Part shown: positions 28,173 through 51,715 of the stretch, in pieces
Position numbering within the stretch: position 1 is the stretch's first letter
Layout: the number at the start of each line of letters is the position of its first letter
Assembly: GCA_963676835.2 (NCBI GenBank)
Contig: CAXXFF010000001.1
Location: forward strand, 384,001 to 448,000
Source of the DNA: Marispirochaeta sp.
Lineage (GTDB): Bacteria > Spirochaetota > Spirochaetia > JC444 > Marispirochaetaceae
Reading direction: 5' to 3'
DNA length: 64,000 nt
Made by a program: the position numbers and the translations under genes
Notes under the pieces: model-generated
The model's database searches: none
Seen by the model: the letters and a program-made list of their open reading frames with translations, nothing else
What the model was told of the DNA's origin: nothing

Positions 28173-28820
28173 TTATTGAATATTTTGTAATCTGACCGGA
28201 TAGAGCACCCGTATTCCATTCAGGTTACGCCCTGGTCCGGAGCCGTACTTGTCGCTGATATTGTAGACCTCATTAAAACGGTGCTCCCCGGGAAACTCCG
28301 GGTCCAGCATGAGAAAACCGTCATCGTCATAACCGGTAAGCACAACATAATGAGGAGCCCCGCGATACAGAACCTCACCGATAACAGGAATACTTCTGTC
28401 CAGATAATAACGGACAAGGATTAGATCCGCCGGTACTGCCCGCCAGTTAAAGCGGGTATACACATAGCCTTTACCGTATCGGGTTAGGGCCGGCCAGTTC
28501 ATAACAACTTTGCCGAGACTGGTATTCCTGTCCGGATCATCTTCAAAGCCGCTGTTGGCTTTCAGCCAGCGGTTCATTCGGGAAGGATTCAGAGTGTCAT
28601 TTTCAAAATGAGAATAGACCATTGAAACCGCAGTAAGGGCACACCCGTGGGTGCGGATTGTGGCGGAGGAACCGAACCCGAGTTTTTCTTCAGCCCAGGG
28701 GGCATCTTTTCCCTGGGTATAGTAGGGCACAGGAACAGGACCTGCGTCGGAAAAGAGGAAGATCGATACAGACAGTATAAAAAACAGTGAAAAAGAGACC
28801 TGTTTATGCATTGGAATCAA
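28173..28820 (-). CDS. Secreted C39-like cysteine peptidase
   Basis: Signal peptide, YYTQ, GCALTAVSMV (Cys), HYVVLTGY (His) and DP. Confidence 0.75.
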   Translation of the reverse strand: MIPMHKQVSFSLFFILSVSIFLFSDAGPVPVPYYTQGKDAPWAEEKLGFGSSATIRTHGCALTAVSMVYSHFENDTLNPSRMNRWLKANSGFEDDPDRNTSLGKVVMNWPALTRYGKGYVYTRFNWRAVPADLILVRYYLDRSIPVIGEVLYRGAPHYVVLTGYDDDGFLMLDPEFPGEHRFNEVYNISDKYGSGPGRNLNGIRVLYPVRLQNIQ

Positions 28821-28847
28821 GATAGCACTCCAGCCGGGATATCTCCA

Positions 28848-31265
28848 TCAGGCAAGTCTCTTCGGACGTGTTTGTTGAAGGGCGGGAAATTTCATCAGGA
28901 GAGAATCTACAGCCTTCTGCTGAAGAGAGCTACCTGTGGATGCCGTCATTTCCCGGGTAATATGTAACAAGTCTGTTAAACTGCTGTTGTTCAGTATATC
29001 TGCAGCGGGCGTTCTTAAATCGAGAAGATAAACATCCGTCCGGGAATCTGCAAGAACATGGTCATACAGCACGGGGTTTTTCAGATATAGACCATTGTAA
29101 TCCCCTGCCCGTTTAATCACCCGGATTGTATTTCCCTGATCATCCCTGATCTCCGCAGATTTATTACATCCGGGGAGACATGCAGCATCCATAACCACTT
29201 TGGCGCAGTCAGTACAGTTCCTTACAATACAGTGCCGTGTCTTCATCAGCAGGAGCGGCGAGATAAGGGCTGCCCAGAGTTCCATATCTCCCGGGATCGA
29301 TGTCTCATGTATCTGACTGCCGGACAACTCCTGTGACAGAAAAGCACCGTCGGCACCGTACTGCTGAAAGAACTCGAGACTGTATCCGTTGCTGCCGTTC
29401 AGCATGGGACCTGCAATCCAGGGAATACCTTTTTCGCCGGCATACCAGGCAATACCGGAGTTATCCGTTGCGATCCGCCTGAAGGAACGTCGATTCAGCA
29501 ATGCACAGGCGGCCTCAAACTGTTCTCCAATAAGGATAGAAGGAAACCAGGGAATGAGATCCGGAAATGAATCAAACACCTTATCAGCCTGGTGCATACC
29601 GTTGGCGTCTGCGGGCAGCTGAAAAAGAACGGTAATATCAGACCCGGCCGGAATACCATGTAAAATTTCAGAGTTGTCCACCAACAGCGCCAATCCGGGT
29701 TTAAGGGATTCACCCTCTGTCCGGACCGGAAGGACGGGTTTTATCCTGTATTCAGCATTTTGAACTGAAAGCTGCTCAACCGCGTCCCTGCGCAGCTGAT
29801 TGATCACTTTTACGGGGATAAACAGATCTCCATCCAGGTCATCGAGATCACAGGTTTCCAGATAAAACTCTGAGTTTCCCAGGCGGGACAGCTGTTTATA
29901 GACAGCCTCCTTCTCAGTGGGCCGCTTTTCGGCTTTTTCCAGCCTTGCCTCAGAAACAACAGATACCTGCTGTCCTTCTGCGTGTGCCAGCAACGTTAAA
30001 GGAGATCCGGCACTGCCGGAAAGTTTCATCCGCAGCGGTTTCTTCTTCTCCGTCCAGCTCAGTTCACGGACTGCTTTTTTAAGATTCTTTCCTGCCATGG
30101 ATTCCGGCTGACCCCAGACAATATGTCCGCGCTGGATTTTCCCTTTTAGAACATGTTCCATCCTGAATCGGAACACTCCCGGTGAAAGCTTTTCTCCAAG
30201 CAAACCGGTGCAGATAAAATTACCTTCCGTTGTTTTGATGGTAACAGTCCTGCCCTCCTCCAGGGAACTGCCGTCTGTGAAGGCAATTTCCTTCCTGTCT
30301 GCAGAGTACCCCTTGACCTTATCAAGTATGTTTAAGGATTGATCATCACTATCTGAGGTAAAAGCGTCAGATCCCAGCCTTCCTCTGATAAGATTATCAC
30401 TGAAAGAACGGTTAAAAACAGCGTCCAGTCTGGAATCTGAAACATGAGGAGCCTCTCCTTTACCAAGACGGTCAAGCTGCTCTCTCCAGGCGGAGGTGGT
30501 ATTATAAACGTATTCATAGCCTTTTATACGGCCTTCAATCTTCAGGGAATCCGCTCCTGCTCTTAACAGCTCTTCAGCAGACGAAAAGACTGAATTATCC
30601 TTCAGATTGAGGGGCCTTAGTCTATCATTTCTGCCGGAGTATTCCCTGCGGCAGGGCTGCACACAGGCACCACGGTTGGCACTGTTACCGTACAGACAGC
30701 CGGACATATAGCATTGGCCTGAAAATGAGACACAGTAGGCCCCATGCACAAACACCTCTACCTTCATCCCGAGTTCATGGGCAGCATCAGCAAGATCAGA
30801 AATCTCATCCAGTGAAAGTTCTCTGCTGAAGTTGACCTGGGAAACTACGGCCCGGGAAAGAAGTTCAAGCTGGCCCCGGTTGTGGGTGGTCATCTGAGTT
30901 GATGCATGTATTTCCAGATCCGGAAAAACACGCCGTACCACAGAAAGCAGCCCGTAATCCTGAAGAATTACAGCATTGATGCCTGCATTTACGGCATCCT
31001 GCAGCAGCTGCACTAGAGAATTGAACTCATTTTCCAGAGCCAGAACATTGAGGGTAAGGTAGATTTTGACACACCGCTCCCCTGCAATACCGCAAAGTTC
31101 TTTCAGCTCTTCATATGTTATATTTACGGCCCGTTTGCGGGCATTGAAATCTCCTACTCCCAGAAAAACCGCATCGGCGCCGGCCAGAATAGCAGCCTTT
31201 ACCGAGTCGGAATCTCCCCCGGGAGAAAGTAGTTCAACCGTCCTGTTTATAAAACCAGTCATCAA
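28848..31265 (-). CDS. U32-family protein (long RlhA-like RNA hydroxylation type)
   Basis: ELLSPGG, GADAV, HASTQ, VHGAYC..SGQC, NRGACVQPCR and KIEGR. Confidence 0.85.
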   Translation of the reverse strand: MMTGFINRTVELLSPGGDSDSVKAAILAGADAVFLGVGDFNARKRAVNITYEELKELCGIAGERCVKIYLTLNVLALENEFNSLVQLLQDAVNAGINAVILQDYGLLSVVRRVFPDLEIHASTQMTTHNRGQLELLSRAVVSQVNFSRELSLDEISDLADAAHELGMKVEVFVHGAYCVSFSGQCYMSGCLYGNSANRGACVQPCRREYSGRNDRLRPLNLKDNSVFSSAEELLRAGADSLKIEGRIKGYEYVYNTTSAWREQLDRLGKGEAPHVSDSRLDAVFNRSFSDNLIRGRLGSDAFTSDSDDQSLNILDKVKGYSADRKEIAFTDGSSLEEGRTVTIKTTEGNFICTGLLGEKLSPGVFRFRMEHVLKGKIQRGHIVWGQPESMAGKNLKKAVRELSWTEKKKPLRMKLSGSAGSPLTLLAHAEGQQVSVVSEARLEKAEKRPTEKEAVYKQLSRLGNSEFYLETCDLDDLDGDLFIPVKVINQLRRDAVEQLSVQNAEYRIKPVLPVRTEGESLKPGLALLVDNSEILHGIPAGSDITVLFQLPADANGMHQADKVFDSFPDLIPWFPSILIGEQFEAACALLNRRSFRRIATDNSGIAWYAGEKGIPWIAGPMLNGSNGYSLEFFQQYGADGAFLSQELSGSQIHETSIPGDMELWAALISPLLLMKTRHCIVRNCTDCAKVVMDAACLPGCNKSAEIRDDQGNTIRVIKRAGDYNGLYLKNPVLYDHVLADSRTDVYLLDLRTPAADILNNSSLTDLLHITREMTASTGSSLQQKAVDSLLMKFPALQQTRPKRLA

Positions 31266-31370: not shown

Positions 31371-33866
31371 CTAATACTCATCAACATCCTCATAGCCGAC
31401 AACCGTATTGGCATGATTGAGCGAGTCAGGATTGTATGAATCTGCATCCCATATATCGTTTCCGTCAAGTTTACTGTACTTGGTTGAATCGATGGTAATG
31501 GAAACAAGGACTCCTTCCGCGAGCAGACTGCGCAGCAGATTGATTTCATCATCGGAGGTTACGGTAAAATAGTAATCCGTACCGTAGGTGGCGTCATCCC
31601 GAAGAAAGCTGGACCTGGCAAGAGGTGCTTCCCTCCAGGCTGTTTCATCGGGCCAGCTGGTGTGGTCTGAGGCACTGTAGGGCATGGTGTCCCAGGAGGC
31701 ACAGCCGAACTTATCCAGAATCTGCTGATTTTGAAAATAGCTGGTTCCCACATTTTCCCCATTGTTTATCTGATGATAGATAAAGTCCGGGGAGTATATC
31801 CAGTCAAGCAGACTTGAAGGCTTGTAGCCGTTACTTTCGGCAGATGCAACATTTCTCTCATGTTCATAGGCTTCCTGAAAGGTTTTTATATAGTATCCAA
31901 CCGACCAGGATACACAGGAACCTTCAGAACCCTGGGACCCTATGGGAGGAAAGTATGGACCTTCAGACCAGTCAACTGCGGTCGGTATAGTCGGATCCAC
32001 TGCGGTTATTGATGCACCGACAGAGTGATATGGAGTCTTTGGGGTCAGCACTGCACCAGTTTCAGCAATATATTCCCACTCCTCTTCTGTCGGCGGCCGC
32101 CAGCCGGTTCCCATTCCATTTACTATTCTGTTGTAATCCTTGTCCGGATCTGCAGTTCCCATCTCATCTTTCATTTTCTGAAGATCATTTTGTGAAATGG
32201 GCTGGACCTCCGCATGCCGGGTAACAGCGGAACTGACCGAGAAGAGAGAAGAAGTGACCGGGACCGGCTCAAACTCTTCAGCGGGAATTACAATAGAGAC
32301 TATTTCTCCATCATCAAAACTCATGGGCAAACCCGCGGCAGAGGCCTGGTCAGAGGGTTCTGGAGATAGATAATTATAAGTGCTGTGCTCCTCAAGCGAA
32401 AAACTGATTATCGACCCGCTGAATTCCGTCCCATCCGCTGGATCCTCATCCTTGTCCCGTATCCGCAGGAAAAAATCCTCATTGCCCATGTACTGGGCAA
32501 ACTCGCTTACATCAATAACCAGCGGAGAGGCCGGAAAAGATTCTGAGCCGTTGGGGCTGCTGTAAAAATAAGTGGTATAGGTCTGATTGTAGTAATCTTC
32601 AGAACTGCTGACACTCTTCCAGGCAACAGGGTCTTCCGGATCACCCACACCAAGGTAAATATTACAGGCATTGCGCCGGTCATGATCTATCAGAACCTTT
32701 GCAACATACTGCGGGGTATAGCCCGCCCGGTCGGCATAAATATAGACCGGCACCCTGCGAAGCTTCATAGCCTCGTAGGTTATATAATAAAAACCGTCTC
32801 CCACTTTTTCACCGGAAAAAGGATTTCCCCAGGAGTTGGCTACCTTGAAATAGCCCATAGGCCCGGGGACAGCCGAGGTGCGTACCGGTTCGGACATATC
32901 AGATTCATTACCGTCGACAACAGCTGCTATTCTGTAGAAGTACTCCTGTCCCTGGCTTACACTGGTATCAGTGTAGCTGATGTCAGTGTAGCTGGCGGAT
33001 GTAATGGAACCCGATACCAGCAGGTATGGTCCGGCTTCAGATTCCGACCGGTAGAGCAGGTATTCGGCATCGGAAAAGCTGTAATAGTAGCTCCAGGTAA
33101 GGGTAATTGAATCATCTGAATGGTCAAATACAGTAAGATTATTGGGTACCGGCGGTTCTACAGTAAACGCCCTTACCTCGGACCATGCCCCGGTTTGGTT
33201 ACCGCAGAATGCCTGAACCCGCCAGTACTGGCTCTCCAGCATTGTAGTAGAGGTAAAAGAGCGACTGTATTCTGAGTCGTAGCAGACAGTTCCATTATAA
33301 TAGCTGTTGCCTCCGGTGCTGTCATCAACGCCGATACCGTCCTTGTCGTCATCATCCCGTACAGGGAGTGTGCCAAAATCAAAGTAATACCCTTCTGCAC
33401 CGGGAACATCCTCCCAGTCAAACTGCCAGAGCCCGGGATTTCCTCCGCCGCCGTTATCCAGATAGTCATCTGCTTCGGGAGTATTCAGAAGCGGTGTTTC
33501 CAGAGAAGAAATACTGATGGAAAAATCGCCCTCTACTGTAGGCGATTTCTCAAGACCCTCAGCAGAGGCATAAGCCATCACCGTCAGAGTTGAACCGTCA
33601 TCATTTACAGGAATTCCGCTGCTGTATACACTTGAATTAATATCAGGGATCGTGCCGTCGGTGGTGTAATAGATTACAGCTCCAGTAGTTGCGCAGCTGA
33701 TTTCAAGAACAAAATCATTTGCATAAACACCGGAATCGGGAAAAAACTCAGGAGCAGCAACAGTGGCAACTGAAGATGCGCTTCCACTACCGGCGGGAGT
33801 ACAGGAACAAAATAAACCGGAAAGAGAAATCATTAAAAATAAAACTTTCATATACAGGTTATTCAT
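31371..33866 (-). CDS. Lipoprotein with FN3-like domains and a circularly permuted papain-family (C1) peptidase
   Basis: Lipoprotein signal (LSGLFC); IYYTTDG.P domain; FN3 domain; FKVANSWG (N344); QGSEGSCVSW (C651); NHANTVVGY (H818). Confidence 0.82.
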   Translation of the reverse strand: MNNLYMKVLFLMISLSGLFCSCTPAGSGSASSVATVAAPEFFPDSGVYANDFVLEISCATTGAVIYYTTDGTIPDINSSVYSSGIPVNDDGSTLTVMAYASAEGLEKSPTVEGDFSISISSLETPLLNTPEADDYLDNGGGGNPGLWQFDWEDVPGAEGYYFDFGTLPVRDDDDKDGIGVDDSTGGNSYYNGTVCYDSEYSRSFTSTTMLESQYWRVQAFCGNQTGAWSEVRAFTVEPPVPNNLTVFDHSDDSITLTWSYYYSFSDAEYLLYRSESEAGPYLLVSGSITSASYTDISYTDTSVSQGQEYFYRIAAVVDGNESDMSEPVRTSAVPGPMGYFKVANSWGNPFSGEKVGDGFYYITYEAMKLRRVPVYIYADRAGYTPQYVAKVLIDHDRRNACNIYLGVGDPEDPVAWKSVSSSEDYYNQTYTTYFYSSPNGSESFPASPLVIDVSEFAQYMGNEDFFLRIRDKDEDPADGTEFSGSIISFSLEEHSTYNYLSPEPSDQASAAGLPMSFDDGEIVSIVIPAEEFEPVPVTSSLFSVSSAVTRHAEVQPISQNDLQKMKDEMGTADPDKDYNRIVNGMGTGWRPPTEEEWEYIAETGAVLTPKTPYHSVGASITAVDPTIPTAVDWSEGPYFPPIGSQGSEGSCVSWSVGYYIKTFQEAYEHERNVASAESNGYKPSSLLDWIYSPDFIYHQINNGENVGTSYFQNQQILDKFGCASWDTMPYSASDHTSWPDETAWREAPLARSSFLRDDATYGTDYYFTVTSDDEINLLRSLLAEGVLVSITIDSTKYSKLDGNDIWDADSYNPDSLNHANTVVGYEDVDEY

Positions 33867-35761: not shown

Positions 35762-36424
35762 TCAGACCAGAAACTGATAGACCGACATCATGGTGCCCAT
35801 AATAATAAACCCCAGGCTCATAAAGCGGAACATCATATCAAAACGTCTGTCCATATTGTGCTGCGTTGATGTAAAACGCTGATCAAGGCTGTGCTGGGTC
35901 TCCTCAAAACGTTTGTCCATCTGTTCAAACCGCTTGTCCATATTCTGCTGCATAGACTCAAAGCGCTTGTCCATATTCTGCTGCATAGACTCAAAGCGCT
36001 TATCCATGTTCAGATGCATAGACTCAAAACGTTTATCCATGTTCAGCTGCATCGCTTCAAAACGATTATCCACCTGTTCAAAGCGCCGTTCCATATTCTG
36101 CTGCATGACTTCGAATCGTTTATCCATACTCTGCTGTATTACTTCGAAACGTTTGTCGACCTGCTCGAAGCGCTTATCTACCTGTTCAAGGCGCTTGTCG
36201 ACCTGTTCAAAGCGATCATCCATCCGCTTGAATCCCTCTTCAATGCGGCCATCGATACGAATAATGGTTTCCCTGAATGCAGCGTGTTCTAAATTGTTCT
36301 GATCTTTCAAAATCATATTCTGTGTGAGCAGGGTAATATAGCGGTGAAGAGAACCTCTATTTTTCACCTCAAAGGCATCTTCCAGTTCGTGTTCCAGCAT
36401 ATCGGCCAGACTATCCATGGTCAT
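35762..36424 (-). CDS. Coiled-coil protein with C-terminal membrane anchor, paralog 3 (220 aa)
   Basis: Same head and TM tail as the genes at 9421-10275, with 13 DxRF-type repeats in the stalk. Confidence 0.82.
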   Translation of the reverse strand: MTMDSLADMLEHELEDAFEVKNRGSLHRYITLLTQNMILKDQNNLEHAAFRETIIRIDGRIEEGFKRMDDRFEQVDKRLEQVDKRFEQVDKRFEVIQQSMDKRFEVMQQNMERRFEQVDNRFEAMQLNMDKRFESMHLNMDKRFESMQQNMDKRFESMQQNMDKRFEQMDKRFEETQHSLDQRFTSTQHNMDRRFDMMFRFMSLGFIIMGTMMSVYQFLV

Positions 36425-39802: not shown

Positions 39803-41245
39803 TTGAAATCTGTACAAAGAATCGGGATAACAGCGCTTATTCTGATAACAGCATTATTCTCTTTTATCTCATGTGATAACGGTTCTGCATCCGGTTCCGG
39901 ATCAACGGGAAGCAGCAGTGACATAACTGCACCTACAGCAGGAAACAGTGGAACTATTTCATTCAGCACTGTTTCTTCAAGTGGCGTGACGGTAAACTGG
40001 ACCGCCGGAAGTGACGATACCAGCGCACAGGCAGACCTCGAATACCTGGTGTACTATTCTACATCCGACAATATTGATACAGCCGCCAACGCAGTATCAA
40101 ACGGTACGGCCGCTGGCAGTTTTTCTGCAAATATCTCCTCAAAAGCGGTCTCCGGCCTTACAGGATCAACCACCTACTACTTTAATGTGCTGGTAAAAGA
40201 TGAGGCTGGAAATACCACTGCGTACACATCCAGTTCTGAGACGACCTCTGCCGCCGGCGACTCTACCGCACCCACTGCTGGAGGTTCAGGTGTATTAAGC
40301 TTTTCTTCAGTGAACAGCAGCAGTTTGACCGTAAACTGGACAGCCGGTACCGACAATGTTACAGCCCAGGCAAATCTGCAGTATCTGGTCTACTATTCTG
40401 CAAGCAACAACATTGCATCTGTGTCAAATGCCGAAACTAACGGTACAGCGGTGGGGAGTTATTCTTCGAACATAACAACAAAAGCGGTTACCGGTCTTTC
40501 TGCAAGTACCACTTATTACTTCAATGTAATTATTAAGGATGAAGCCGGAAATAAAACTGCCTATACAACAAACTCTCAGGCAACATCTGCCGCCGGCGAC
40601 TCTACCGCGCCAACTGCGGGAGGTTCCGGTGTATTAAGCTTTTCCTCAGTGAACAGCAGCGGCTTGACCGTAAACTGGACAGTCGGTACCGACAATGTTA
40701 CAGCCCAGGCAAATCTGCAATATCTGCTCTACTATTCCACAAGCAATAATATTGCCGCTGCATCCACTGCTGAGGCAAACGGCACCGCCGTTGGGGCCTA
40801 TGTCTCAAATATAGCAACGAAGAGTGTTACCGGTCTGTCTGCAAGCACCACCTATTACTTCAATGTAATTGTTAAGGATGAAGCCGGAAATAAAACTGCC
40901 TATAGCACCAACTCACAATCAACAGATTCGGCAGTCGTAACTGCTTATGAAGTTAGCGGCTACGATGAAGCAGGATTGAGCACCCATGGTAATGGAACCT
41001 ATTCCAAGATATCCGACTACAATGGTAAAGTGGCCTACCAGTTTGATAATTCAGCCCTCTATACCAATGAGATATTTACAATTCGGTGGGAAACGCTTAA
41101 TTCCCGATGGGAGATTTATAATTCCAGCTACGACGACTGGGACTACTATAACCTCGATACAGGCGATACACCCCCGACTTCGGGATGGTATAAATGGGGA
41201 GCAGAAAGCAGCCCCGACCTGAACCTAACCTTAACCGCTCAGTAA
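39803..41245 (+). CDS. Surface lipoprotein with three FN3 repeats and a distinct C-terminal domain
   Basis: TTG start with AGGAGG; SFISC lipobox; Ser/Gly tether; 3 repeats of about 113 aa (VNWT.G.D...L.Y..YYS...GL..STTYYFNV..KDEAGN). Confidence 0.87.
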   Translation: MKSVQRIGITALILITALFSFISCDNGSASGSGSTGSSSDITAPTAGNSGTISFSTVSSSGVTVNWTAGSDDTSAQADLEYLVYYSTSDNIDTAANAVSNGTAAGSFSANISSKAVSGLTGSTTYYFNVLVKDEAGNTTAYTSSSETTSAAGDSTAPTAGGSGVLSFSSVNSSSLTVNWTAGTDNVTAQANLQYLVYYSASNNIASVSNAETNGTAVGSYSSNITTKAVTGLSASTTYYFNVIIKDEAGNKTAYTTNSQATSAAGDSTAPTAGGSGVLSFSSVNSSGLTVNWTVGTDNVTAQANLQYLLYYSTSNNIAAASTAEANGTAVGAYVSNIATKSVTGLSASTTYYFNVIVKDEAGNKTAYSTNSQSTDSAVVTAYEVSGYDEAGLSTHGNGTYSKISDYNGKVAYQFDNSALYTNEIFTIRWETLNSRWEIYNSSYDDWDYYNLDTGDTPPTSGWYKWGAESSPDLNLTLTAQ

Positions 41246-42307: not shown

Positions 42308-44188
42308 TTACTTACCAAGTCCTGTCGTAAACGAACATGCAGGACTTGTGTATGTAAATAACAACCCTGTTGCGACATAGCGCCATGTATATTGGGTATC
42401 AGTCTGTAATGCCGGATCACTTGCTATAAAAGTATACCCTGAAGTGGTCAAACCTGTTTTAACATCTAACCATGTATGTCCGGATAATACCTGCAACGTG
42501 TATGTGGTTCCTTTTGGTGCACCGGTAGGAGTATTCCAGTCAAATGTTGGTCGTGTTGATACAAATTTAGCATTGGGGACCGGCATCACATCGAATTTAA
42601 TTATTTGAGTAGTATAGTCAGACCAATTATTCCGGGCATCGCGCTCACGTACCCTGAGAAAATTGTAACCGTTTGTGATAGTTAAGGCTGTATAACTCAG
42701 TGCAGTTGTTTCACTGCTCCAACCTGTATCATTATAGTTATACTGATAGTACCCAACTCCACCATTTCCACCAGAAGACCATGTCCAAGTAGGTGTAATA
42801 TCGGTTGTAGGTGTTGTCCCTGAAACCGAAGGTGCGGATGGTGGTGTATCGTCAATATACAAGTAATCAGTTTTATAAGCATAATTACCTGCCAGGTCAA
42901 ATACGTAAGCCCGCGCATACTCATATGAATAATTATGAGAGAAAAAATCCACGGTATGCGTAACAGGCGAGCCACTAACAGCAAGCCGATCTACTGATGA
43001 AGAACCGTAATACCAGCCGTTATCACTGTCGTATACATTATATGTAAGGCTTGTAACGGGGGTAAGATTATCAGTCACAGTGAAATTAAACGGTACCGAG
43101 GTATAGTTTATTGTAGAATATGCTTGTTGAAGTGTTACTGTTGGTGCTGTCGTATCCCAAACAAATGTGAATGAGTCACTTGTACTGTTACCCGCTCTAT
43201 CACGCAGTTCCACGTCCACAGTATACGTACCTTCAGTAGTTGATGAGATATAGCTGTAATAAGAATCAGAAGGGGAAAATGACAGTTCGGGGTCAGAAGA
43301 AGACCATTCGTAATATGCGGCACCGGAATAACTGGTTGGTACTATATACTGACTCGAGTTTTTGTATCTTGTCTCCCCTGCTTCCAATTCTGGCGAAACA
43401 GTATCCAAGGTGATTGTCTTTTCTTCTATCTTTGAGTACCCGGTTGAAAAATCAGGAAGCTCCCCTTTGAATACGGCATAAACTGTTTTTACGCCATCTA
43501 CACTTGTCGAGAAATTGAAGTCGCTGAACGGTGTACCTACAGTATGCCATACACCTGCACTTAATGCCTCTATTTCCCCATCATCATCAATAGAGGTGTA
43601 GTCATCGGTGATATAAAAATAATCTGCGTAGTCGTTATAGAAAGCAACCGAAACATCAACATATGATTCATTTGTATATCCGCTGTCAGCAGCTCCTCCG
43701 CTTGTACTACGATCTATAACTTGAATACTTCCAGCTGGTGCTGTACCAGTTTTAAAGTTCCAGATATAAGCTTCCTGCATTTCACTGCCGTCACTCCCCT
43801 GAATTCCAGAAATCTCAATTGAATAATCGTGACTGTTTTCAAAATATGTATCTGGTCCCGGTTCAATCTTTAGTCGTTTAATGGAGGAATTAAACTCTGG
43901 ATTAATGATAGAAACTGAACTTGAATTAGTCAGATCCGTAATTTCAATAGTCTCGGATGTAACAGAACCAAGACTGATATCCCGATCAAAGTTGATATAA
44001 ATTTCACTTCCAGGATTTATGCCTGTACTATTATCTGCTGGACTGACACTCTCAACCACAAGAAACAGATCATTCGCAACCTTAACCTCAGTCCCCACAG
44101 CCTCAACAAAATCAATGGGCTCTTCGCAGGTGGTAAACAGCAAAACAGCGGTAACAAGGGCTGCAAAAACCAGTACTTTCTTCATCAT
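42308..44188 (-). CDS. Ig-like repeat surface lipoprotein (module 2 partner)
   Basis: MMKKVLVF...LFTTC lipobox, SbsA/Big_5-type domain (SVSPAD...INFDRDI...WNFKTG), then Ig-like and PTWTWSSGG domains. The RBS lies in the last codons of the upstream gene. Confidence 0.83.
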   Translation of the reverse strand: MMKKVLVFAALVTAVLLFTTCEEPIDFVEAVGTEVKVANDLFLVVESVSPADNSTGINPGSEIYINFDRDISLGSVTSETIEITDLTNSSSVSIINPEFNSSIKRLKIEPGPDTYFENSHDYSIEISGIQGSDGSEMQEAYIWNFKTGTAPAGSIQVIDRSTSGGAADSGYTNESYVDVSVAFYNDYADYFYITDDYTSIDDDGEIEALSAGVWHTVGTPFSDFNFSTSVDGVKTVYAVFKGELPDFSTGYSKIEEKTITLDTVSPELEAGETRYKNSSQYIVPTSYSGAAYYEWSSSDPELSFSPSDSYYSYISSTTEGTYTVDVELRDRAGNSTSDSFTFVWDTTAPTVTLQQAYSTINYTSVPFNFTVTDNLTPVTSLTYNVYDSDNGWYYGSSSVDRLAVSGSPVTHTVDFFSHNYSYEYARAYVFDLAGNYAYKTDYLYIDDTPPSAPSVSGTTPTTDITPTWTWSSGGNGGVGYYQYNYNDTGWSSETTALSYTALTITNGYNFLRVRERDARNNWSDYTTQIIKFDVMPVPNAKFVSTRPTFDWNTPTGAPKGTTYTLQVLSGHTWLDVKTGLTTSGYTFIASDPALQTDTQYTWRYVATGLLFTYTSPACSFTTGLGK

Positions 44189-44189
44189 C

Positions 44190-46253
44190 CTACTCCTCCT
44201 CATCCCAGCTGGAGACTTCCCGCTTTACCGCGTTGGAAGCTCTTCCCACCGATGTATCGGCAGATCCGAGATAGGCAAACTCCGCGGCCAGCGCGGGATC
44301 AGCTGAATTCAGCTTGTTCATAGCTGAATCAGCCTCGTTATATTTTTCAAGTTCATAACTCGCCCGGGCGACACCTAAAAGAGCCTTGGTATTGTTCGGA
44401 CTTGTCCGGCTTGCCCGGCTGTAAGTTTCCAGCGCCTGTACCATGTTCCCCTGCAGATAGTAGATATTTCCAAGGTTAACCATGGCAGGTACATATTCGG
44501 TCTGATTCAGGATTGCCCGAAACTGCTCGGCAGCTTTATCAAGTACCCCAAACTGGGCGTAGAGAATACCCAGCTTGTTGCGGGCATAGACAGTTTTTCC
44601 CGCCATGGCCATCTGGCCCCGCAACTCGCTTACCCTCGGTTCAATCTGACGGTTTATAAAGGTTACCAGTGCCTTGCGGTAGCGTTCCATAAGGCGGTCT
44701 TCACTGGGAAGAACCACCCCGGCGGTGCCTTCTGCAAAGCCGATGGGTTCGTACAGCTCCCAGGCTTCCCGTACCGGATAAAAGCCGTTGGTTCCGGCCT
44801 CTACAGTCTCCCGCCACTCTTTTGCCCCGATCTGCCAGGATTTAAGGAAACCTTCCCGAACCAGGGTTATCTCAACAGGGAGCCAGGTATCATCTTCGGT
44901 GAGAATCAGGTCCCGCTCATCCAGGAAAAGCCTTTTTGCCTGGGCCGGAGCCATACCAAGGGAGAAAGCCATATAGATATGCCCGGGGGCTGTGATAAAG
45001 GCAGTTTTTATACCTACTGCTTCCAGCAGGGAGGCATAAAGTATGGAAAGATCGTCGCAGTCGCCTGCTTTATATGCCACGGTCTGGCTGGGAAACTGCA
45101 GATAATCCAGGGCTTCTTCGTTTTCGGACAAAGAAGCATAGGGGGTTGAGGGATCCTGCACATATCCCATGCCGTATACCGACAGGGCCTCAAATATGCC
45201 CATAGCAATACGGAACTTCTCATTAATGGCGCTGGAGTTGTCGGAACCGATAGTGGCTGCCACATTCTTGGCAAAGCTTAAAATAAGGGGATCCTTGGCG
45301 GTAACAAAGGCCGCTGCCTTACGGTCATCATCCCAGGTCATGGCATTTCGGTTATTTATGGTTACCGTAACCGGCACAGTCTCACTCATCTCCTTGCCGA
45401 TGTAGGAGTATTCGATGGTTATTTCTCCTGCAGCCTTTGTTCCCTCGGTTACACGGAAGATATTCTCTGCAAACAGGGCGTAGACCGGGACATCAATCGC
45501 TTCCCTGCCCCGGAGAACAGGATACTCTGCACAGACCTTGGGCTGATCCATAAACTGCTTTACAAAAAAACTGACCTTTACATCCTTAATGGGGCCGGAC
45601 TCAAGATTGGTCAGGCTAACCTGTCCTGCGGGATGTTTTTCGTAATAGCTGTAGAACAGGGGAAATATGGGCTGCAGTGTCGGCATATACTGAAGTTCCG
45701 CACCTTTGGAGGAGCCGCCGATCTGGTAACGCATTCCAAGGCCGATACTGATGCCCTGAAGAGCCGATTCCGTACTGGTAAGGTAGTCACGATAATCTGC
45801 TTCAAGGCTGAGGCTCAGGCCCGGATTCAGTTTGTAGGCTGCATAGGCTGCTCCGCCGTAGAAGGGATCCCGGATGGAACCTTCATCGATAATGCCCATA
45901 TAGAGCCCGCCGAAGCCTTTCAGGCCCAGATTCAGGCGGGAGAGAGGTGCATACTGAACTCCCAGGCTGGGACCAAGGGCGACAAAGGTTGCAGACCGGT
46001 CCGAGCCGTTGATGGGCATAATAGAAACATCCATCATGAGCCCTGAGGTAAGAAAATCGAGCTTGCCCGGAGTGTAGGAGCCTTCCAGGTTTATGCCCCC
46101 CCCGGTGGAATAGAAAACCGGTCCGCCGTCAACTTCCGGCCCCAGAGGAACCGTAACTGAAGGCCTGGCAGTCAGATGCATGGAGCCGGACTGGGCATAT
46201 ATAGTCAAAGTTAAACAGATTATAATTAGTGCAGAAAGGGCAGTTTTTTTCAT
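44190..46253 (-). CDS. Exported beta-barrel / Ig-like / transglutaminase-like / TPR protein (module 2)
   Basis: Signal peptide, about 150 aa of amphipathic strands, GDCDDLSILY (C399), PGHIY (H425), WLPVEIT (E461), and C-terminal TPRs (NLGNIYY). Confidence 0.8.
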   Translation of the reverse strand: MKKTALSALIIICLTLTIYAQSGSMHLTARPSVTVPLGPEVDGGPVFYSTGGGINLEGSYTPGKLDFLTSGLMMDVSIMPINGSDRSATFVALGPSLGVQYAPLSRLNLGLKGFGGLYMGIIDEGSIRDPFYGGAAYAAYKLNPGLSLSLEADYRDYLTSTESALQGISIGLGMRYQIGGSSKGAELQYMPTLQPIFPLFYSYYEKHPAGQVSLTNLESGPIKDVKVSFFVKQFMDQPKVCAEYPVLRGREAIDVPVYALFAENIFRVTEGTKAAGEITIEYSYIGKEMSETVPVTVTINNRNAMTWDDDRKAAAFVTAKDPLILSFAKNVAATIGSDNSSAINEKFRIAMGIFEALSVYGMGYVQDPSTPYASLSENEEALDYLQFPSQTVAYKAGDCDDLSILYASLLEAVGIKTAFITAPGHIYMAFSLGMAPAQAKRLFLDERDLILTEDDTWLPVEITLVREGFLKSWQIGAKEWRETVEAGTNGFYPVREAWELYEPIGFAEGTAGVVLPSEDRLMERYRKALVTFINRQIEPRVSELRGQMAMAGKTVYARNKLGILYAQFGVLDKAAEQFRAILNQTEYVPAMVNLGNIYYLQGNMVQALETYSRASRTSPNNTKALLGVARASYELEKYNEADSAMNKLNSADPALAAEFAYLGSADTSVGRASNAVKREVSSWDEEE

Positions 46254-46473: not shown

Positions 46474-49400
46474 TCAGAAATCATCCATACGGGCTACCAG
46501 GTTAATGAAAAACACCTGGCCGTACTGGTAGGTAGTAGCCGATGTGAATCCACGTCCGGGAACATCATAGTAGCCGAACTGGAGGAACCTTCCCTGACGG
46601 ACCGTCGGAAAGTAGGTTGAATAGTTGTTGTCCGCCGAGTAGACCACGCCGTCGGTTACAGATGTTGGATCAGAGAGGTATACACCATAACGATAAACAT
46701 CCCCGGTGGTAGTATTGAAGATATTACTCAGATTGACGTCACTGTTGTAGAAGTAGGTCTCAAGATAGGTATTCCGCATAGGAGAATACCAGATGCTTTC
46801 CGAGGTGGATGCAGCTCTTGTCTTGATGGATTTGTTGGAACCGATGCCGGCACTCTCTCCCCGTCCAATCTGGGTAGGTGCTGTGCCGGATAGTCCCCAG
46901 CTGCTCCAGTTGATCTCAATCCTGTCCAGGAGAGAGCCGCCGTTGTAGCCCATGGCGATAAGTCCGCGGCCGTTGGCTGCGATATGCCTGGATTTAATAT
47001 CGTAAGTGGTATCACCGTAGGTGAATGTTGAGCCCGGGGTTACGATTACAGGATCACCGTAGATGATATTATTGGTTGAATAGCTTGAGTTGTTGATCAG
47101 ATCCTCAGGCAGCATGGTTACGGTGTAGGTCGGCATGGTTCCCGCCATATTGGCCTGACTCAGGATTCCGCCGGACCAGTAGGTATCTTCCAGAAGTTCC
47201 TTGATGTACTGGGCAATAAGAATATCCTTGGACTCGTTATCGTCATATACAACCGTAACATTTGAGCTGAAGCCCATAACGTTTGTGGCACTGTAGGGTC
47301 CATAACCGCCGGTGTCTGCATTATAGGCCCGGACGAAGAAGTAGCGGATCTCACCTTTGGGAATGGAAACCAGATGATAGCTTGTTGAGGTAGTGTAACC
47401 TTCGTAGGTAACACTGTCGCCGTTATTGGGATCCGCATTCGGGTCTGTGGTGGAATAGGTATAATACCTGGTGGTATTGGCACCTGCATCTTCAGTAACA
47501 TCCGAAGAATAGACCCTGCTGTAACCGCTGGAGTAGTAGCTCTTGTCAGCATACTGGGGTACCGGAACCTGAAGATAGATTGAGTCTGACAGATAGGCGT
47601 AGTTTCCCGCTTCATCATATACCGTTGTATAGGTGTACTTGGTACCAGGGCTTATAGAGAACTGGAAATCAGAGTCCATAAGTGCAGCATAGGTGCGGTA
47701 ATCACTCCAGCCGCCTCCGCCGGTGCTGTAATAGTCGTAGGTACTTACCTGCAGATTTGTGACACTGGTCAGGTTATCACTTACGTTGAGGTTGAGCTTG
47801 TAGGAGAGTGACGGAGTATAGGTTGCGCCGTTATTGACTGAATAGGTTCCTGTTGGTGCAGTTGTATCAAGTATGATTGAATCATTCCGGTAGGACGATC
47901 CGTTCCCTGCTTCATCTACAAGCTGAGCATAGACATACTTGGTTCCGTCACCGTTGTCGTATTTCAGTTCCGTGGAAATAGTCATGGTACCGTCGGTTTC
48001 AAAGGGTGAGCCGTAGGTTTCGTAAGCGGAAGCCGGGTTGTAATCCAGATAGCGCAGGGTTACATCTTCATTCTCGGCACTGATATCTCCGGTAATATCA
48101 ACGTATACGCTTGTGTTATTGGTATGGGAGTTATCTGTATCCAGAGCAAAGTTTGACGGATCCCTTATCAGCACACTGGTAAGAACCGGAGCGATTGTAT
48201 CGACAGTTATACGGTGGCTGGCAGTTGCAGACCAGTTACCAGCCTCATCACGCTCCTGTACTTCAAGCAGATAAGTGCCGTCTGCTTTATATGGTGTATA
48301 ACTTGTTCCGGTGCCGCTGTTCCAGCCTCCTCCGTCGATTCTGTACTGGAAAACTCCGTTTCCGCCGCCGCCGGAAGTCCAGCTCCAGGTTGGATAGTGA
48401 TCGTTGGTTGCGGTTCGATCAGAATCACCCGTGGTATTTCCCTCTCCGGAGAGATCCGGTCTTCCGGGGTCTGTTGTATCGATGGTGATGGTATGAGTTG
48501 CCTGCTTTTCTGTCTGCCAACCAAGGTTGTAGTACTCTTCAATTGTCAGAGAATGTACACCGTCTGAAGTATCGGCAAGGGTGAATACCGTTGGATCTCC
48601 CGGATCATTACTCAGGGAACTGTAAACAGTATCATACCAGGAATCACCGCCATTCCAGGAATAACGATACCTTTCTGCTATTCCGCCGGAGCCGGTGAGC
48701 ACATGCCATGTCATGGTCGCTACTGTCCGCAAAGCGGGATATACATCCCCGATAGAAATTTCAGGCGGAGATGTCTGAGATAAATCGATCAAGGTCTCAG
48801 AAGTCCCTGCAACAGACCAGTTATCGGCGGAATCCAACTCCTGGACCTCAAGCCTGTATGTAATCAGGTTATCGAGAGGATCATCAACTGTGGGTGTAAA
48901 GCTTAAAGAGCTTGTTTCTGTCCAGTCATATGCCGCAACAACCTGATCATCTGTAACATTATAGAGTCTGTACCGGTAGGTTCCGATACCGCCGCCTCCG
49001 CTTGACCAGTACCAGGTTGGCCGTACGTTGGGAGTAACTTCAGGTCCGGATACAGTCGGAGTTCCCGGGAGAGTTACATCACGGTACAGTGTCAGGTTGG
49101 CTTCCGACTGGTTACCGGCAGAATCAGCAACGGTAAGTGTTATTCCGTAGGTACCATCTGTGGTGGCGCTAACACTGGTAACAGGAAGATCTTCATTTGA
49201 GAAGCTTACGTTAGCCGGAGCAGTCCAGGTATAGGTCGCAATTCCCGTACCCCCGGTATCGGTAACAGTGCCATCGGGGCCGGCATCAAAGTCAATAGTT
49301 ATGGAAGGGGCAGCATAGTTGGCTGTGTATCCATAGTTATTCACAGTAATTACCGGTGGAATGGTATCTATGGTAACCGCCACCGGTGTTGCTTCGCTGT

Positions 49401-51705
49401 AGTTATCTGCATAGTCATAGGCTCGCAGATAGAGTGAATGGCTGCCGTCTGCCAGTGCGGTATTGGGCGAGTATTCAGCTACTGTTATGTCCACATATGT
49501 GGAGAAGTTATCAAAACTGACCCGGTAAAAATCGGCCCCGCCGGTTTCATCCCAGCTCCACAAAGGCTGTGCGTCTGTAGAGTAGCCCGGCTGTGACTGT
49601 TCCACCGTAAATCCTGTTATGGCATCCGGCGGGTTCTGATCCAGGGTAACCGACACAAGATCAGTTGCGGAGTTACCCGCCGGATCTGTTGCGGTTACGG
49701 TCAGGTAATAAGTACCTTCCGCGGTCATATAAACCCAGGGCTCTTCTATGGCGGTTCCGTTGTTCTGGGTAGTAGAACCAGAACTGAGGTTGAAGTAAAG
49801 ATCTCCGGGGCCGCTGATAAACGCCCAGCTGTATTCGGCTATACCATTAATCTCGGTAATCTCATAATAGTCTGATCCTGTGCCTCCCTGAAGCATTTGA
49901 AATTCATCGTTTTCCAGAAAATCATCTTCAGCAAAGGCAACTGCAGGATCTATTCTGTCGAGGATAATGGAGTCAGTACCGGGCTGAGCCGCGGCGTTTT
50001 CGAGGTAATCCCGAACCCAGATAGAAATAGTGTATGAATCATCGATATCGGGCAGTTCCCATTCGTCTATAGAGGGAACCCAGTCGATCCAGCCGGTGTC
50101 AGTTGTTCCATCGCTTACCCGCATCTCTTTCAGGCCCGTATGGGTATCTGCAGAAGTAAACTGCAAATTGATTTTCCGGGCGGTATCATTCAGATAATCA
50201 CCTTCAAGTATAGTTACCGTTGGATTGGCCGGAGCTTCACCGTCAAGAAAAACCTTTATCTGGCCTGCAGAAGGAGATTCATTTCCCGCGCTGTCAACAA
50301 ACTTGTAAAGGATAAATTTGGACCCTGCACTGGTTGAAACATTCCAGTCCCGCACAGGATCAGCCCCGGTGGGAAAGGCTTCCCAGGCGGCGTTGGATTC
50401 AAAAGCTTCTTCTGTTCCGTCACTGTCGCCCCAGAATTTCATTCCCCAGACTGTATTGTAGTCATCGGTAATATCAGAAAGATCCAGGCGTATGCGGTAA
50501 TCGTTGGTGGCTACAGCACCGGTGGGCAATGTTGTAACGATAGAGTTGACCGGGTCCCCATCAAGGGTGGACAGGGGAGTCAGGGAAATGGTTCCGGAAG
50601 GAGCTGTTGTATCGGTGGAATCTCCGGTATAAAAGTACCATACAGATTCATCGCCGCCGATGGGATTCCCGGATATATCTTCAACGCTGTTTCCGAGAAC
50701 AACCTTGTACTGGGTATTTGGCTCCAGTTCAAGCCCCCAGAGGTTTGCAGCGGAACCGGGCTTGTCATTAGCTTCGATAAGACTGATTACCCCGGGAATT
50801 TTAGATGAGTCTGATATTCGCTCTGCATAATAGTTGGTGGAATCAAAACTGGTGGAAGCCATCTCATCATCAAAGGTGATGGTCAGGGTTGTGCCGTTAT
50901 AGGGATAGGTATCTGTGTCGTCCCAGTTAACATCAATAACTGCAGGGGGCGTCAAGTCATATATGATTTCCGCAGTTCCCGGATCAGAAATTACTCCGTC
51001 AGAGTCCCGCACTTCGACTACATAGGATGCAGATTCACCGTTGGCAATACCGCTTATATCGAGGTCCTCAACACTTGCAAGCCCGTCGGTAAGGGTAGTC
51101 CACTCCGACCAGTCCACAGCAGCTTCCGCTTTATAGCGGTAATTGAGTCCTGCAGTATAGCTGTCGCTGTCTGTAGCGGAAATATCAAGGTCAACCAGGG
51201 TTGTGTTCGTCGCACTTTGCCCGCCATTCAGGCGTATGTACTTTATTACCGGTTTAATACTCGCAGGAGCCTCTTCCGTGGAAAAAGTCCATGAGTACTG
51301 GTCCACCAGGCTGTTGCCGTCCTCATCATGGATACCGGAGGTTGCGGTTATGGTAAAACTGGTTCCGTAGGCAAGGGCGGAACTGGGGTTAAAGGCAATG
51401 GTATCGTTACTCACTGAGAAACTGCCGGAAACTGTCTCGTCATCGGCGTTTTTTACAATAAAGCTTGAGCCGTTTACACTGGAAGACTTTATCGCTTTGG
51501 TAAAGGAGAGGAGAATATTATCTATGTCCACGGGAATGCTTGTATCACCGTCTTCGGGATACATTGAAACAATCGAAGGCGGTGTTACAACAATTTCCAC
51601 CTCCTCTTCGATTTTATTCACCAGATCATTGGGACATCCCGCAAAGAAGGCAATTACAACAACAGCAGTTAACAGCAGCGGACGATGCAGCATATTCCTT
51701 ACCAT
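46474..51705 (-). CDS. Very large (about 1740 aa) Ig-like repeat surface lipoprotein, possible adhesin (module 1 partner)
   Basis: MVRNM...FFAGC lipobox (ATG 51705, GGAG upstream), two SbsA/Big_5-type domains, many D.AGN...D..(A/P)P Ig repeats, and a Tyr/Ser/Thr-rich distal region. Confidence 0.85.
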   Translation of the reverse strand: MVRNMLHRPLLLTAVVVIAFFAGCPNDLVNKIEEEVEIVVTPPSIVSMYPEDGDTSIPVDIDNILLSFTKAIKSSSVNGSSFIVKNADDETVSGSFSVSNDTIAFNPSSALAYGTSFTITATSGIHDEDGNSLVDQYSWTFSTEEAPASIKPVIKYIRLNGGQSATNTTLVDLDISATDSDSYTAGLNYRYKAEAAVDWSEWTTLTDGLASVEDLDISGIANGESASYVVEVRDSDGVISDPGTAEIIYDLTPPAVIDVNWDDTDTYPYNGTTLTITFDDEMASTSFDSTNYYAERISDSSKIPGVISLIEANDKPGSAANLWGLELEPNTQYKVVLGNSVEDISGNPIGGDESVWYFYTGDSTDTTAPSGTISLTPLSTLDGDPVNSIVTTLPTGAVATNDYRIRLDLSDITDDYNTVWGMKFWGDSDGTEEAFESNAAWEAFPTGADPVRDWNVSTSAGSKFILYKFVDSAGNESPSAGQIKVFLDGEAPANPTVTILEGDYLNDTARKINLQFTSADTHTGLKEMRVSDGTTDTGWIDWVPSIDEWELPDIDDSYTISIWVRDYLENAAAQPGTDSIILDRIDPAVAFAEDDFLENDEFQMLQGGTGSDYYEITEINGIAEYSWAFISGPGDLYFNLSSGSTTQNNGTAIEEPWVYMTAEGTYYLTVTATDPAGNSATDLVSVTLDQNPPDAITGFTVEQSQPGYSTDAQPLWSWDETGGADFYRVSFDNFSTYVDITVAEYSPNTALADGSHSLYLRAYDYADNYSEATPVAVTIDTIPPVITVNNYGYTANYAAPSITIDFDAGPDGTVTDTGGTGIATYTWTAPANVSFSNEDLPVTSVSATTDGTYGITLTVADSAGNQSEANLTLYRDVTLPGTPTVSGPEVTPNVRPTWYWSSGGGGIGTYRYRLYNVTDDQVVAAYDWTETSSLSFTPTVDDPLDNLITYRLEVQELDSADNWSVAGTSETLIDLSQTSPPEISIGDVYPALRTVATMTWHVLTGSGGIAERYRYSWNGGDSWYDTVYSSLSNDPGDPTVFTLADTSDGVHSLTIEEYYNLGWQTEKQATHTITIDTTDPGRPDLSGEGNTTGDSDRTATNDHYPTWSWTSGGGGNGVFQYRIDGGGWNSGTGTSYTPYKADGTYLLEVQERDEAGNWSATASHRITVDTIAPVLTSVLIRDPSNFALDTDNSHTNNTSVYVDITGDISAENEDVTLRYLDYNPASAYETYGSPFETDGTMTISTELKYDNGDGTKYVYAQLVDEAGNGSSYRNDSIILDTTAPTGTYSVNNGATYTPSLSYKLNLNVSDNLTSVTNLQVSTYDYYSTGGGGWSDYRTYAALMDSDFQFSISPGTKYTYTTVYDEAGNYAYLSDSIYLQVPVPQYADKSYYSSGYSRVYSSDVTEDAGANTTRYYTYSTTDPNADPNNGDSVTYEGYTTSTSYHLVSIPKGEIRYFFVRAYNADTGGYGPYSATNVMGFSSNVTVVYDDNESKDILIAQYIKELLEDTYWSGGILSQANMAGTMPTYTVTMLPEDLINNSSYSTNNIIYGDPVIVTPGSTFTYGDTTYDIKSRHIAANGRGLIAMGYNGGSLLDRIEINWSSWGLSGTAPTQIGRGESAGIGSNKSIKTRAASTSESIWYSPMRNTYLETYFYNSDVNLSNIFNTTTGDVYRYGVYLSDPTSVTDGVVYSADNNYSTYFPTVRQGRFLQFGYYDVPGRGFTSATTYQYGQVFFINLVARMDDF

Positions 51706-51715
51706 CTCTTTCTCC

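What the first reader, a model, noticed from the sequence alone, without database searches (positions are those of the whole stretch)
31371..33866. Circularly permuted papain-family (C1) protease: Asn motif precedes Cys and His
Seen: in one uninterrupted 831-aa ORF, GYFKVANSWG...GDGFYYITY (N344) comes first. A beta-rich domain and a propeptide-like stretch follow, then the mature-start motif PTAVDW, QGSEGSCVSW (Q645, C651), and NHANTVVGY (H818) only 13 residues from the stop. Known: papain-family order is Cys, then His, then Asn, with the His and Asn strands joined by a short loop. Inference: the chain is cut exactly in that loop and the C-terminal part has moved in front of the prodomain. All catalytic residues are kept, so this may be an active permuted enzyme. 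Removing the now-internal propeptide would give a two-chain protease tethered by its lipid and FN3 stalk.
Basis: partly seen in the sequence, partly recalled or inferred. Interest (0 to 1): 0.85.

Follow-up and report, generated by a model that had tools for sequence, protein, structure and literature searches.

The report
Circularly permuted papain-type lipoprotein protease
This gene encodes a membrane-anchored papain-type protease whose chain is naturally cut and reordered inside its catalytic core, a layout shared by a group of uncharacterised bacterial proteins that may keep the enzyme attached to the cell after it is activated.

Summary
The 831-aa ORF carries N344, Q645, C651 and H818 as stated. 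It is a true circular permutation: against a usual-order relative the two halves align crosswise. Of the 237 best homologs, 73 share the order Asn strand, beta domain, pro-segment, Cys-His half; 164 have the usual order. Permuted forms occur in Spirochaetota, Thermotogota, Halanaerobiales and Riflebacteria. An AlphaFold model (pLDDT 88.8, pTM 0.91) has the papain fold, and the protein ends where the cathepsin L heavy chain ends. A two-chain model pairs the Asn strand with the His strand (0.95 against control 0.00). Permuted forms are N-terminal lipoproteins (54 of 73 against 8 of 164), and 15 of 38 permuted loci are followed by a cystatin-like or chagasin gene; this one is not. Best reading: a lipid-anchored zymogen that stays tethered as a two-chain enzyme once the internal propeptide is cut. 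Activity and processing are inferred, not shown. Ten literature searches found no description. This scan noted the same family before on other genomes.

The parts
31371..33866 (-). Whole gene, 831-aa permuted papain-type lipoprotein (P0001)
33801..33866 (-). Lipoprotein-type signal peptide, residues 1-22 (LFCS-C22)
   Evidence: sequence; own lipobox rule, (not SignalP)
33534..33740 (-). CHB_HEX_C_1 / Fn3-associated Ig-like stalk domain, residues 43-111
   Evidence: Pfam PF13290 E 5e-14
33159..33497 (-). Probable first FN3-like stalk domain with acidic insert, about residues 124-236
   Evidence: inferred from the sequence pattern; no Pfam hit
32871..33155 (-). FN3 stalk domain, residues 238-332
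   Evidence: PF00041 E 0.0014; PDB 3mpc E 1.5e-6
32751..32861 (-). Moved C-terminal part of the papain domain: Asn strand (N344 at 32835-32837, W346) and following strand and helix, residues 336-372
   Evidence: profile A2 hits xylellain 251-276, E 0.001; contacts
32277..32750 (-). Beta-sandwich accessory domain, residues 373-530; follows the Asn strand in both orders; PLAT-like or P-domain-like, family not settled
   Evidence: (Z 5.5-7.1)
31986..32210 (-). Internal pro-segment, residues 553-627 (GxGTG..PP motif), flanked by poorly conserved low-confidence linkers 531-554 and 606-627
   Evidence: homologous to the N-terminal pro-region of usual-order relatives; overlies xylellain and Cwp84 pro-regions in the fold search; conservation
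31374..31991 (-). Cys-His half of the papain domain, residues 626-831: Q645 (31932-31934), C651 (31914-31916), H818 (31413-31415)
   Evidence: PF00112 1-177/220; model 292-495 = cathepsin L heavy chain 1icf_A 1-175, Z 13.7

Best explanation
A secreted lipoprotein zymogen of a papain-type (C1A-derived) cysteine peptidase, made by one ancient circular permutation of a pro-C1-beta-domain gene. Steps: (1) exported and lipidated at C22, held out on an Ig/FN3 stalk (inferred from motif and domains); (2) the Asn strand (336-372) folds back into the R-domain sheet beside the C-terminal His strand, giving the usual Gln/Cys/His/Asn site (modelled); (3) the internal pro-segment covers the cleft (inferred from homology and fold overlay); (4) cuts in its two loose linkers release it and leave a two-chain enzyme: the Cys-His chain held non-covalently by the Asn strand and beta domain, which stay joined to the lipid anchor (inferred); (5) it degrades outside or periplasmic proteins, most likely for nutrition (inferred; no substrate evidence). 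The permutation is what lets an N-terminally anchored protease lose its propeptide without losing its anchor. My odds by step: real permutation 0.98, intact active site 0.85, propeptide cut out 0.65, tethering as the reason it was kept 0.45.
For: Crossed alignment; 73 of 237 homologs permuted, none with two copies of the catalytic parts among 290; catalytic residues kept in 62-64 of 64; AlphaFold pLDDT 88.8, pTM 0.91, residues 336-345 at 96; top fold matches xylellain Z 15.9 (rmsd 3.4, 202 aligned), procathepsins Z 14-15; two-chain model score 0.95, best of 3 controls 0.00, runs agree in at least 93% of contacts, partner pLDDT at least 84, mark reached by 116 of 157 solved and 2 of 215 mismatched pairs (roughly, own alignment), best contacts 821-825 with 340-343; the C-terminus coincides with that of the cathepsin L heavy chain, whose two-chain form is the mature enzyme (passages of PMC3234946); lipobox in 54 of 73 permuted against 8 of 164 usual-order proteins, C-terminal membrane helix 0 of 73 against 39 of 164, pro-segment within the first 121 residues in 158 of 161 usual-order proteins; cystatin-like gene after 12 and chagasin gene after 3 of 38 permuted loci with room, 0 of 41 usual-order loci.
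Against: No activity, processing or expression data. The two-chain pass may come from likeness to solved papain folds, since these are halves of one domain, and H818 itself is not among the named interface residues. The anchor-order link rests on what is probably one origin, so it is one evolutionary event, not 73. Three usual-order proteins carry 370-700 residues before the pro-segment, so N-terminal additions do not force a permutation. This gene has no inhibitor neighbour and none was found in its genome, so that support is indirect. In Cwp84 the proposed Asn is not in the active site (passage of PMC4089489), so the Asn need not be catalytic. The lipobox rule is my own.
Confidence: 0.65

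Rival explanations
1. Active permuted peptidase, but the internal pro-segment is not removed: it stays uncut, or is nicked only at 606-627 and remains joined to the beta domain as a lid that can close again.
For: An internal pro-segment needs two cuts to leave (sequence logic). It is well conserved (mean top-residue share 0.54, like the mature part at 0.56-0.68) and confidently packed in the model. The nearest fold, xylellain, was solved with its pro-region in place (model 240-495 = chain 26-249).
Against: Both flanking linkers are variable in sequence and length (0.25 and 0.17; 12-32 and 21-33 residues) and of low confidence, as cleavage loops are. Cwp84 loses its propeptide (passages of PMC4089489 and PMC4356305).
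Confidence: 0.2
2. The fold is kept but it is not a general protease: an inactive binding module, or a dedicated processing enzyme or acyl-transferase for one envelope substrate.
For: Papain-like folds serve many chemistries (sections of PMC10318531); Cwp84 matures one S-layer protein. No substrate evidence here.
Against: All catalytic residues are conserved; two unrelated papain-inhibitor families sit directly behind permuted genes; no window neighbour recurs beside 50 permuted loci except one distant SDR match, so no fixed substrate gene is in view.
Confidence: 0.13
3. History differs (this rival concerns origin, not mechanism): the permutation arose more than once, or arose once and was reversed, the large usual-order group of Bathyarchaeia, Bacteroidota and others descending from permuted genes.
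For: With distant archaeal-type usual-order rows as outgroup, the best tree of 37 rows makes permuted proteins paraphyletic and joins the near usual-order clade to Thermotogota/Halanaerobiales permuted ones (96.5/96); the pro-plus-Cys-His trees need two changes.
Against: AU tests do not reject one permuted clade (p 0.33; 0.067 under LG+G4, 0.49 and 0.14 per half under C20). The Asn-strand plus beta-domain tree gives one permuted clade (90; 94 with outgroup). The outgroup branch is long (0.72).
Confidence: 0.25
4. Assembly artefact or a dead rearranged gene.
For: Only contigs, no raw reads, were available, and the spanning contig may be the source of this DNA.
Against: Same order in 73 proteins, 26 named-genome loci and 25 of 401 genomes of the class; open frame; conserved catalytic residues.
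Confidence: 0.01

Closest known systems
Usual-order sister proteins (e.g. P0067, P0024, named 'C1 family peptidase' by NCBI; Bathyarchaeia, Bacteroidota, Ignavibacteriota, Thermoplasmatota)
   Same: Same four blocks, 35-41% identity to P0067; same catalytic motifs and beta domain.
   Different: Order pro, Cys-His, Asn, beta domain, then C-terminal cargo or anchor (T9SS tail, PKD, dockerin, membrane helix); mostly no lipobox. Uncharacterised as far as my searches show.
Papain family C1A: papain, cathepsins K and L, xylellain (PDB 3OIS; Pfam PF00112)
   Same: Fold (Z 13-16), Gln-Cys-His-Asn set, pro-region over the cleft.
   Different: Chain opened between the His and Asn strands, Asn part about 300 residues upstream of Cys, propeptide internal, extra beta domain, lipid anchor.
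Two-chain cathepsin L (PDB 1ICF heavy chain, 175 residues)
   Same: Chain break in the same loop: model 292-495 aligns to heavy chain 1-175. That the light chain starts with the Asn strand is recalled, not shown by a call.
   Different: In cathepsin L the break is made by a protease after translation (PMC3234946 passages); here it is encoded in the gene and the pieces are joined the other way round.
Cwp84 of Clostridioides difficile (PDB 4CI7)
   Same: Surface-bound bacterial C1A zymogen with propeptide, catalytic domain and a beta-sandwich; model 224-496 aligns to 43-275, Z 11.8.
   Different: Usual order, anchor at the C-terminus, so one cut frees the propeptide; its lectin-like domain was not matched to the beta domain here.
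Known permuted papain-like families (PPPDE/C97, permuted NlpC/P60 and LRAT, LupA, OTUD5, SdeA)
   Same: Natural permutation of a papain-like core.
   Different: There the Cys helix, alone or with one strand, moves behind the His strand, or strands are reversed (PMC10318531 section 5). Here Cys still precedes His, the cut is between His and Asn, and the parent is C1A with a propeptide.

Membership tests
Peptidase C1A (papain family) | Catalytic Cys and His, oxyanion Gln, orienting Asn | tested here: met
   Q645, C651, H818, N344; kept in 64, 64, 63, 62 of 64 permuted proteins
Peptidase C1A (papain family) | Papain two-lobe fold | tested here: met
   Predicted model only: pLDDT 88.8; Z 15.9 to xylellain, 13-15 to cathepsins and papain
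Peptidase C1A (papain family) | PF00112 profile match | tested here: inconclusive
   No hit for the whole protein; residues 626-831 pass the cut-off narrowly over positions 1-177 of 220; the Asn piece has no hit
Peptidase C1A (papain family) | Order Gln-Cys-His-Asn in one contiguous domain | tested here: not met
   Order is Asn-Gln-Cys-His; filed therefore as a permuted variant, not a regular member
Peptidase C1A (papain family) | N-terminal inhibitory propeptide | tested here: not met
   The homologous segment is internal, 553-627; its inhibitory role is inferred
Peptidase C1A (papain family) | Thiol-dependent peptidase activity, E-64 sensitive | not testable with these tools
   Needs bench assay; linked cystatin-like and chagasin genes in relatives are indirect
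Permuted papain-like families (PPPDE/C97, LRAT-like NlpC/P60) | His strand precedes the Cys helix | tested here: not met
   C651 precedes H818; no such Pfam family hit
Bacterial lipoprotein | Signal peptide II with lipobox Cys | tested here: met
   LFCS-C22 by my own rule; 54 of 57 permuted proteins with a hydrophobic N-terminus; lipidation itself not testable
P-domain (PF01483) or PLAT domain, for residues 373-530 | Profile or clear fold match | tested here: inconclusive
   Z 7.1 to lipoxygenase PLAT, 5.5 to furin; 1 of 55 members hits PF01483 at E 0.024; no significant PDB profile hit; domain not folded alone

The most novel reading that the evidence does not exclude
The permutation is an anchoring device: by moving the Asn strand and beta domain in front of the propeptide, a papain-type zymogen can be hung from an N-terminal lipid and still be activated by proteolysis, as a genetically encoded two-chain enzyme, possibly with a propeptide that stays attached at one end and can close again. 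In the boldest form the rearrangement was later reversed, so the same fold switched order twice with its mode of anchoring.
Probability: 0.4. Interest if true: 0.82.

Novelty: new variant of a known kind. Interest (0 to 1): 0.7.

Why it matters
The papain family is described as keeping its core order, and the one recent family-wide survey I read left multidomain prokaryotic members aside (PMC10380794 section 2.3.2; no occurrence of 'permut'). A natural permutant with living usual-order sisters at about 40% identity gives a before-and-after pair for asking how a zymogen folds and is activated when its propeptide is internal, and whether anchor position drives permutation. It also shows a blind spot: Pfam misses the domain in this protein and in several relatives. 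The linked cystatin-like and chagasin genes offer ready cognate inhibitors for assay.

Tried and rejected
Single-sequence AlphaFold model: pLDDT 33, unusable. Single-sequence PDB search found only FN3 and a weak cathepsin K match, E 0.43; the 37-residue Asn piece alone gave nothing significant; the Asn-strand profile did not retrieve the cathepsin L light chain. NCBIfam: no family for the core in 10 proteins. ESM Atlas: best feature hits 0.79-0.82, C1-named clusters, leads only; no structure search. Intermediates: no protein with two Asn pieces or two Cys-His halves among 290; the short Cys-His-only hits lie mostly on short contigs and do not show split genes. Conserved neighbourhood: none with the window's U32, C39, RidA, RecQ or helicase genes. 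Own genome (97% complete): PF09394 not found; cystatin-like queries gave only weak matches (E 0.14, 0.006, 0.056), those of the profile outside its QxVxG core. Promoter and terminator scan: nothing usable at the gene ends. No RNA holder listed; runs X2-X4 cover only pieces. Look-up of earlier findings by sequence: nothing. Literature searches returned nothing; others returned no title on a permuted C1A enzyme (listings only, except the papers named in the report). Rows left out of trees: P0003 (truncated), L040 (frameshifted), L002 (distant paralog), near-copies above 65% identity (314 to 154 rows), 13 rows without a usable Asn piece in the second tree, P0290 (long branch) in the partitioned tree.

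Full report
Observation. Window 31371-33866 (-) is one open frame of 831 aa with N344, Q645, C651 and H818 in the motifs quoted. Pfam finds only the stalk domains in the whole protein. Residues 626-831 alone match Peptidase_C1 positions 1-177 of 220, just over the cut-off, and stop at the His strand; residues 336-530 alone match nothing.

It is a circular permutation. P0001 553-827 aligns to 30-290 of the usual-order protein P0067 and P0001 338-497 to its 304-445. I scored four blocks: A (Asn strand), B (beta domain), C (pro-segment), D (Cys-His half). Among the 237 proteins listed by two searches (best 120 of 226 and best 150 of 3062), 73 have A/B before D and 164 have them after D. With longer and shorter relatives added, the 290 proteins split into 76 permuted, 202 usual and 12 with C-D only; none has two copies of A or of C-D. 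Permuted proteins end 8-33 residues after His (70 of 73 where the motif was found); usual-order ones have a His-to-Asn span of 21-30 residues. Of 79 named-genome loci (best 80 of 474 matches), 26 are permuted: Spirochaetota 10, Thermotogota 8, Halanaerobiales 3, Riflebacteria 3, unassigned 2; the usual-order ones are mostly Bathyarchaeia, Bacteroidota, Ignavibacteriota and Thermoplasmatota. In the window's class, 25 of 401 genomes have a collinear match and 31 more match only the Cys-His part. The own genome has a distant usual-order paralog. One contig of run X1 spans the gene with no difference; it may be the source of this DNA.

Structure. With 64 permuted sequences AlphaFold gives pLDDT 88.8 and pTM 0.91 for residues 336-831, 96 for the Asn strand. 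The best matches are xylellain (Z 15.9, rmsd 3.4, 202 aligned) and procathepsins and propapain. Model residues 292-495 (P0001 627-830) align with residues 1-175 of the cathepsin L heavy chain, the whole chain: the gene ends where cathepsin L is cut into its two-chain mature form (heavy and light chain, passages of PMC3234946; that the light chain carries the Asn is recalled). I could not read the model's coordinates, so I folded 626-831 and 336-530 as two chains: score 0.95, best of 3 controls 0.00, runs agreeing in at least 93% of contacts, partner pLDDT at least 84; the mark was reached by 116 of 157 solved and 2 of 215 mismatched pairs, roughly applicable here. The surest contacts pair 821-825 with 340-343 in antiparallel register, and Q645, C651, N344 and W346 are in the interface. 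Against: H818 is not named, and halves of one known fold can pass by likeness. Q645 and C651 are kept in 64 of 64, H818 in 63, N344 and W346 in 62, the misses being gaps. Block B is a beta-sandwich of unsettled family. Block C overlies the pro-regions of xylellain and Cwp84 and is flanked by two variable linkers.

Anchor. By a simple rule of my own, 54 of 73 permuted proteins (54 of the 57 with a hydrophobic N-terminus) have a lipobox, against 8 of 164 usual-order ones (8 of 123); C-terminal membrane helices occur in 0 of 73 and 39 of 164; the pro-segment starts within 121 residues in 158 of 161 usual-order proteins. So the usual form carries cargo or anchor at the C-terminus, the permuted form at the N-terminus. 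If the propeptide is cut out of an N-anchored usual-order protein, the enzyme falls off; in the permuted order it stays, held through the Asn strand and block B. This is inference, and it rests on probably one evolutionary event. Three usual-order proteins have long N-terminal additions.

Inhibitor genes. A recurring small gene behind permuted genes showed up. In Halanaerobiales it is chagasin (PF09394, E 3e-32). After removing duplicates, 12 of 38 permuted loci with at least 500 bases downstream have the cystatin-like gene (7 of the 12 were seeds of the profile; L044, with 493 bases, has it too), 3 have chagasin, and 0 of 41 usual-order loci have either, chagasin being sought with one query only. 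Two unrelated papain-inhibitor families behind these genes suggest live enzymes. The window's gene has no such neighbour, and none was found in its genome; its other neighbours are not conserved.

Origin. The A-B tree gives one permuted clade (90; 94 and nested among usual-order rows when distant rows are added). The C-D trees need two changes, and a partitioned tree of 37 rows prefers permuted proteins paraphyletic, with the near usual-order clade beside Thermotogota and Halanaerobiales permuted ones (96.5/96). One clade is not rejected (AU p 0.33; 0.067, 0.49, 0.14). One origin is my best reading; repeated origin or reversal is open. That the usual order is ancestral follows from papain, cathepsins and the distant relatives all having it.

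How it most likely works. Lipidated export, folding of the Asn strand beside the His strand, an internal propeptide over the cleft, two cuts, a tethered two-chain peptidase acting outside the cytoplasm. Shown: order, homology, conservation, anchor pattern, gene neighbours in relatives. Modelled: fold and strand pairing. Inferred: lipidation, activity, processing, role in nutrition. Rivals are a propeptide that is not removed (0.2), a non-general or inactive enzyme (0.13), and artefact (0.01).

Comparison and novelty. It works like a C1A peptidase but fails two C1A layout features (order, N-terminal propeptide), so I file it as a permuted variant. Known papain-like permutations move the Cys helix or reverse strands (PMC10318531: abstract, sections 5 and 8, 12 of 16 'permut' passages read); none of what I read is a C1 cut between His and Asn. 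PMC10380794 (abstract, introduction, sections 2.3.2 and 2.6, term search, one small supplement) has no 'permut' and says multidomain prokaryotic C1A peptidases were not analysed in detail. PMC4089489 and PMC4356305 (Cwp84) and PMC4070553 were read as passages. Ten searches found no description; the library lacks most subscription journals and MEROPS, and I did not open the supplements of PMC10318531, whose alignments could hold such a case. Three earlier notes of this scan report the same family on other genomes; they are unchecked and not independent support.

Verdict. Real, family-wide, apparently undescribed permutation of a textbook enzyme, with a testable reason for its layout. New variant of a known kind; interest 0.7.

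Noticed in passing
L021:5479-6195, L034:6931-7626, L035:6676-7356: Two-domain chagasin (I42) gene directly behind the permuted protease gene in three Halanaerobiales loci.
   Followed up: partly
L044, L063, L070, L071, L085-L087, L089, L093-L097: Small secreted cystatin-like gene directly behind the permuted protease in one spirochaete branch; Pfam scores it only weakly.
   Followed up: yes
L097:3-1202 and 1282-2991: Two permuted protease genes in tandem, very acidic, with almost no stalk in the second, followed by the cystatin-like gene.
   Followed up: partly
L002:1237-3000: The own genome also has a usual-order C1 peptidase with C-terminal FN3-like domains, 31% identical over the Cys-His part, behind a vWA-type gene (names from the sequence pattern, not scanned).
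   Followed up: no
genomes G046, G072, G096 against G039, G066: Same-genus genomes carry the cystatin-linked branch (40-41% identity), while the closest relatives of this gene (51%) are in another family: patchy, possibly horizontal spread.
   Followed up: no
window 31764-31808 and 32825-32846 (X1 record 2): A second contig in run X1 matches two conserved motifs at nearly the same spacing (998 against 1016 bases): probably another permuted homolog in that sample.
   Followed up: no
P0038, P0081, P0086, P0090, P0115, P0118, P0144, P0161, P0177: In some usual-order relatives the beta domain is interrupted by an insert of roughly 150-170 residues (InhA-like MAM hit in several).
   Followed up: no
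L040:1895-3259: Usual-order homolog in a Bathyarchaeia bin broken by a frameshift inside the catalytic half.
   Followed up: no
window 28173-31265 (-): Directly downstream on the same strand: a U32-family gene with DUF3656 and a C39-like peptidase gene; not conserved beside relatives.
   Followed up: partly
window 42308-46253 and 46474-53803 (-): Two similar gene pairs: a TPR protein (one with a weak transglutaminase-like hit) followed by a Big_5 Ig-repeat protein.
   Followed up: no
window 35762-36424 (-): 220-aa protein made largely of xDKRFEx heptad-like repeats with a C-terminal hydrophobic helix, downstream part of the run that holds recQ.
   Followed up: no
window 39803-41245 (+): Lipoprotein-like gene with three near-identical FN3 repeats.
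   Followed up: no
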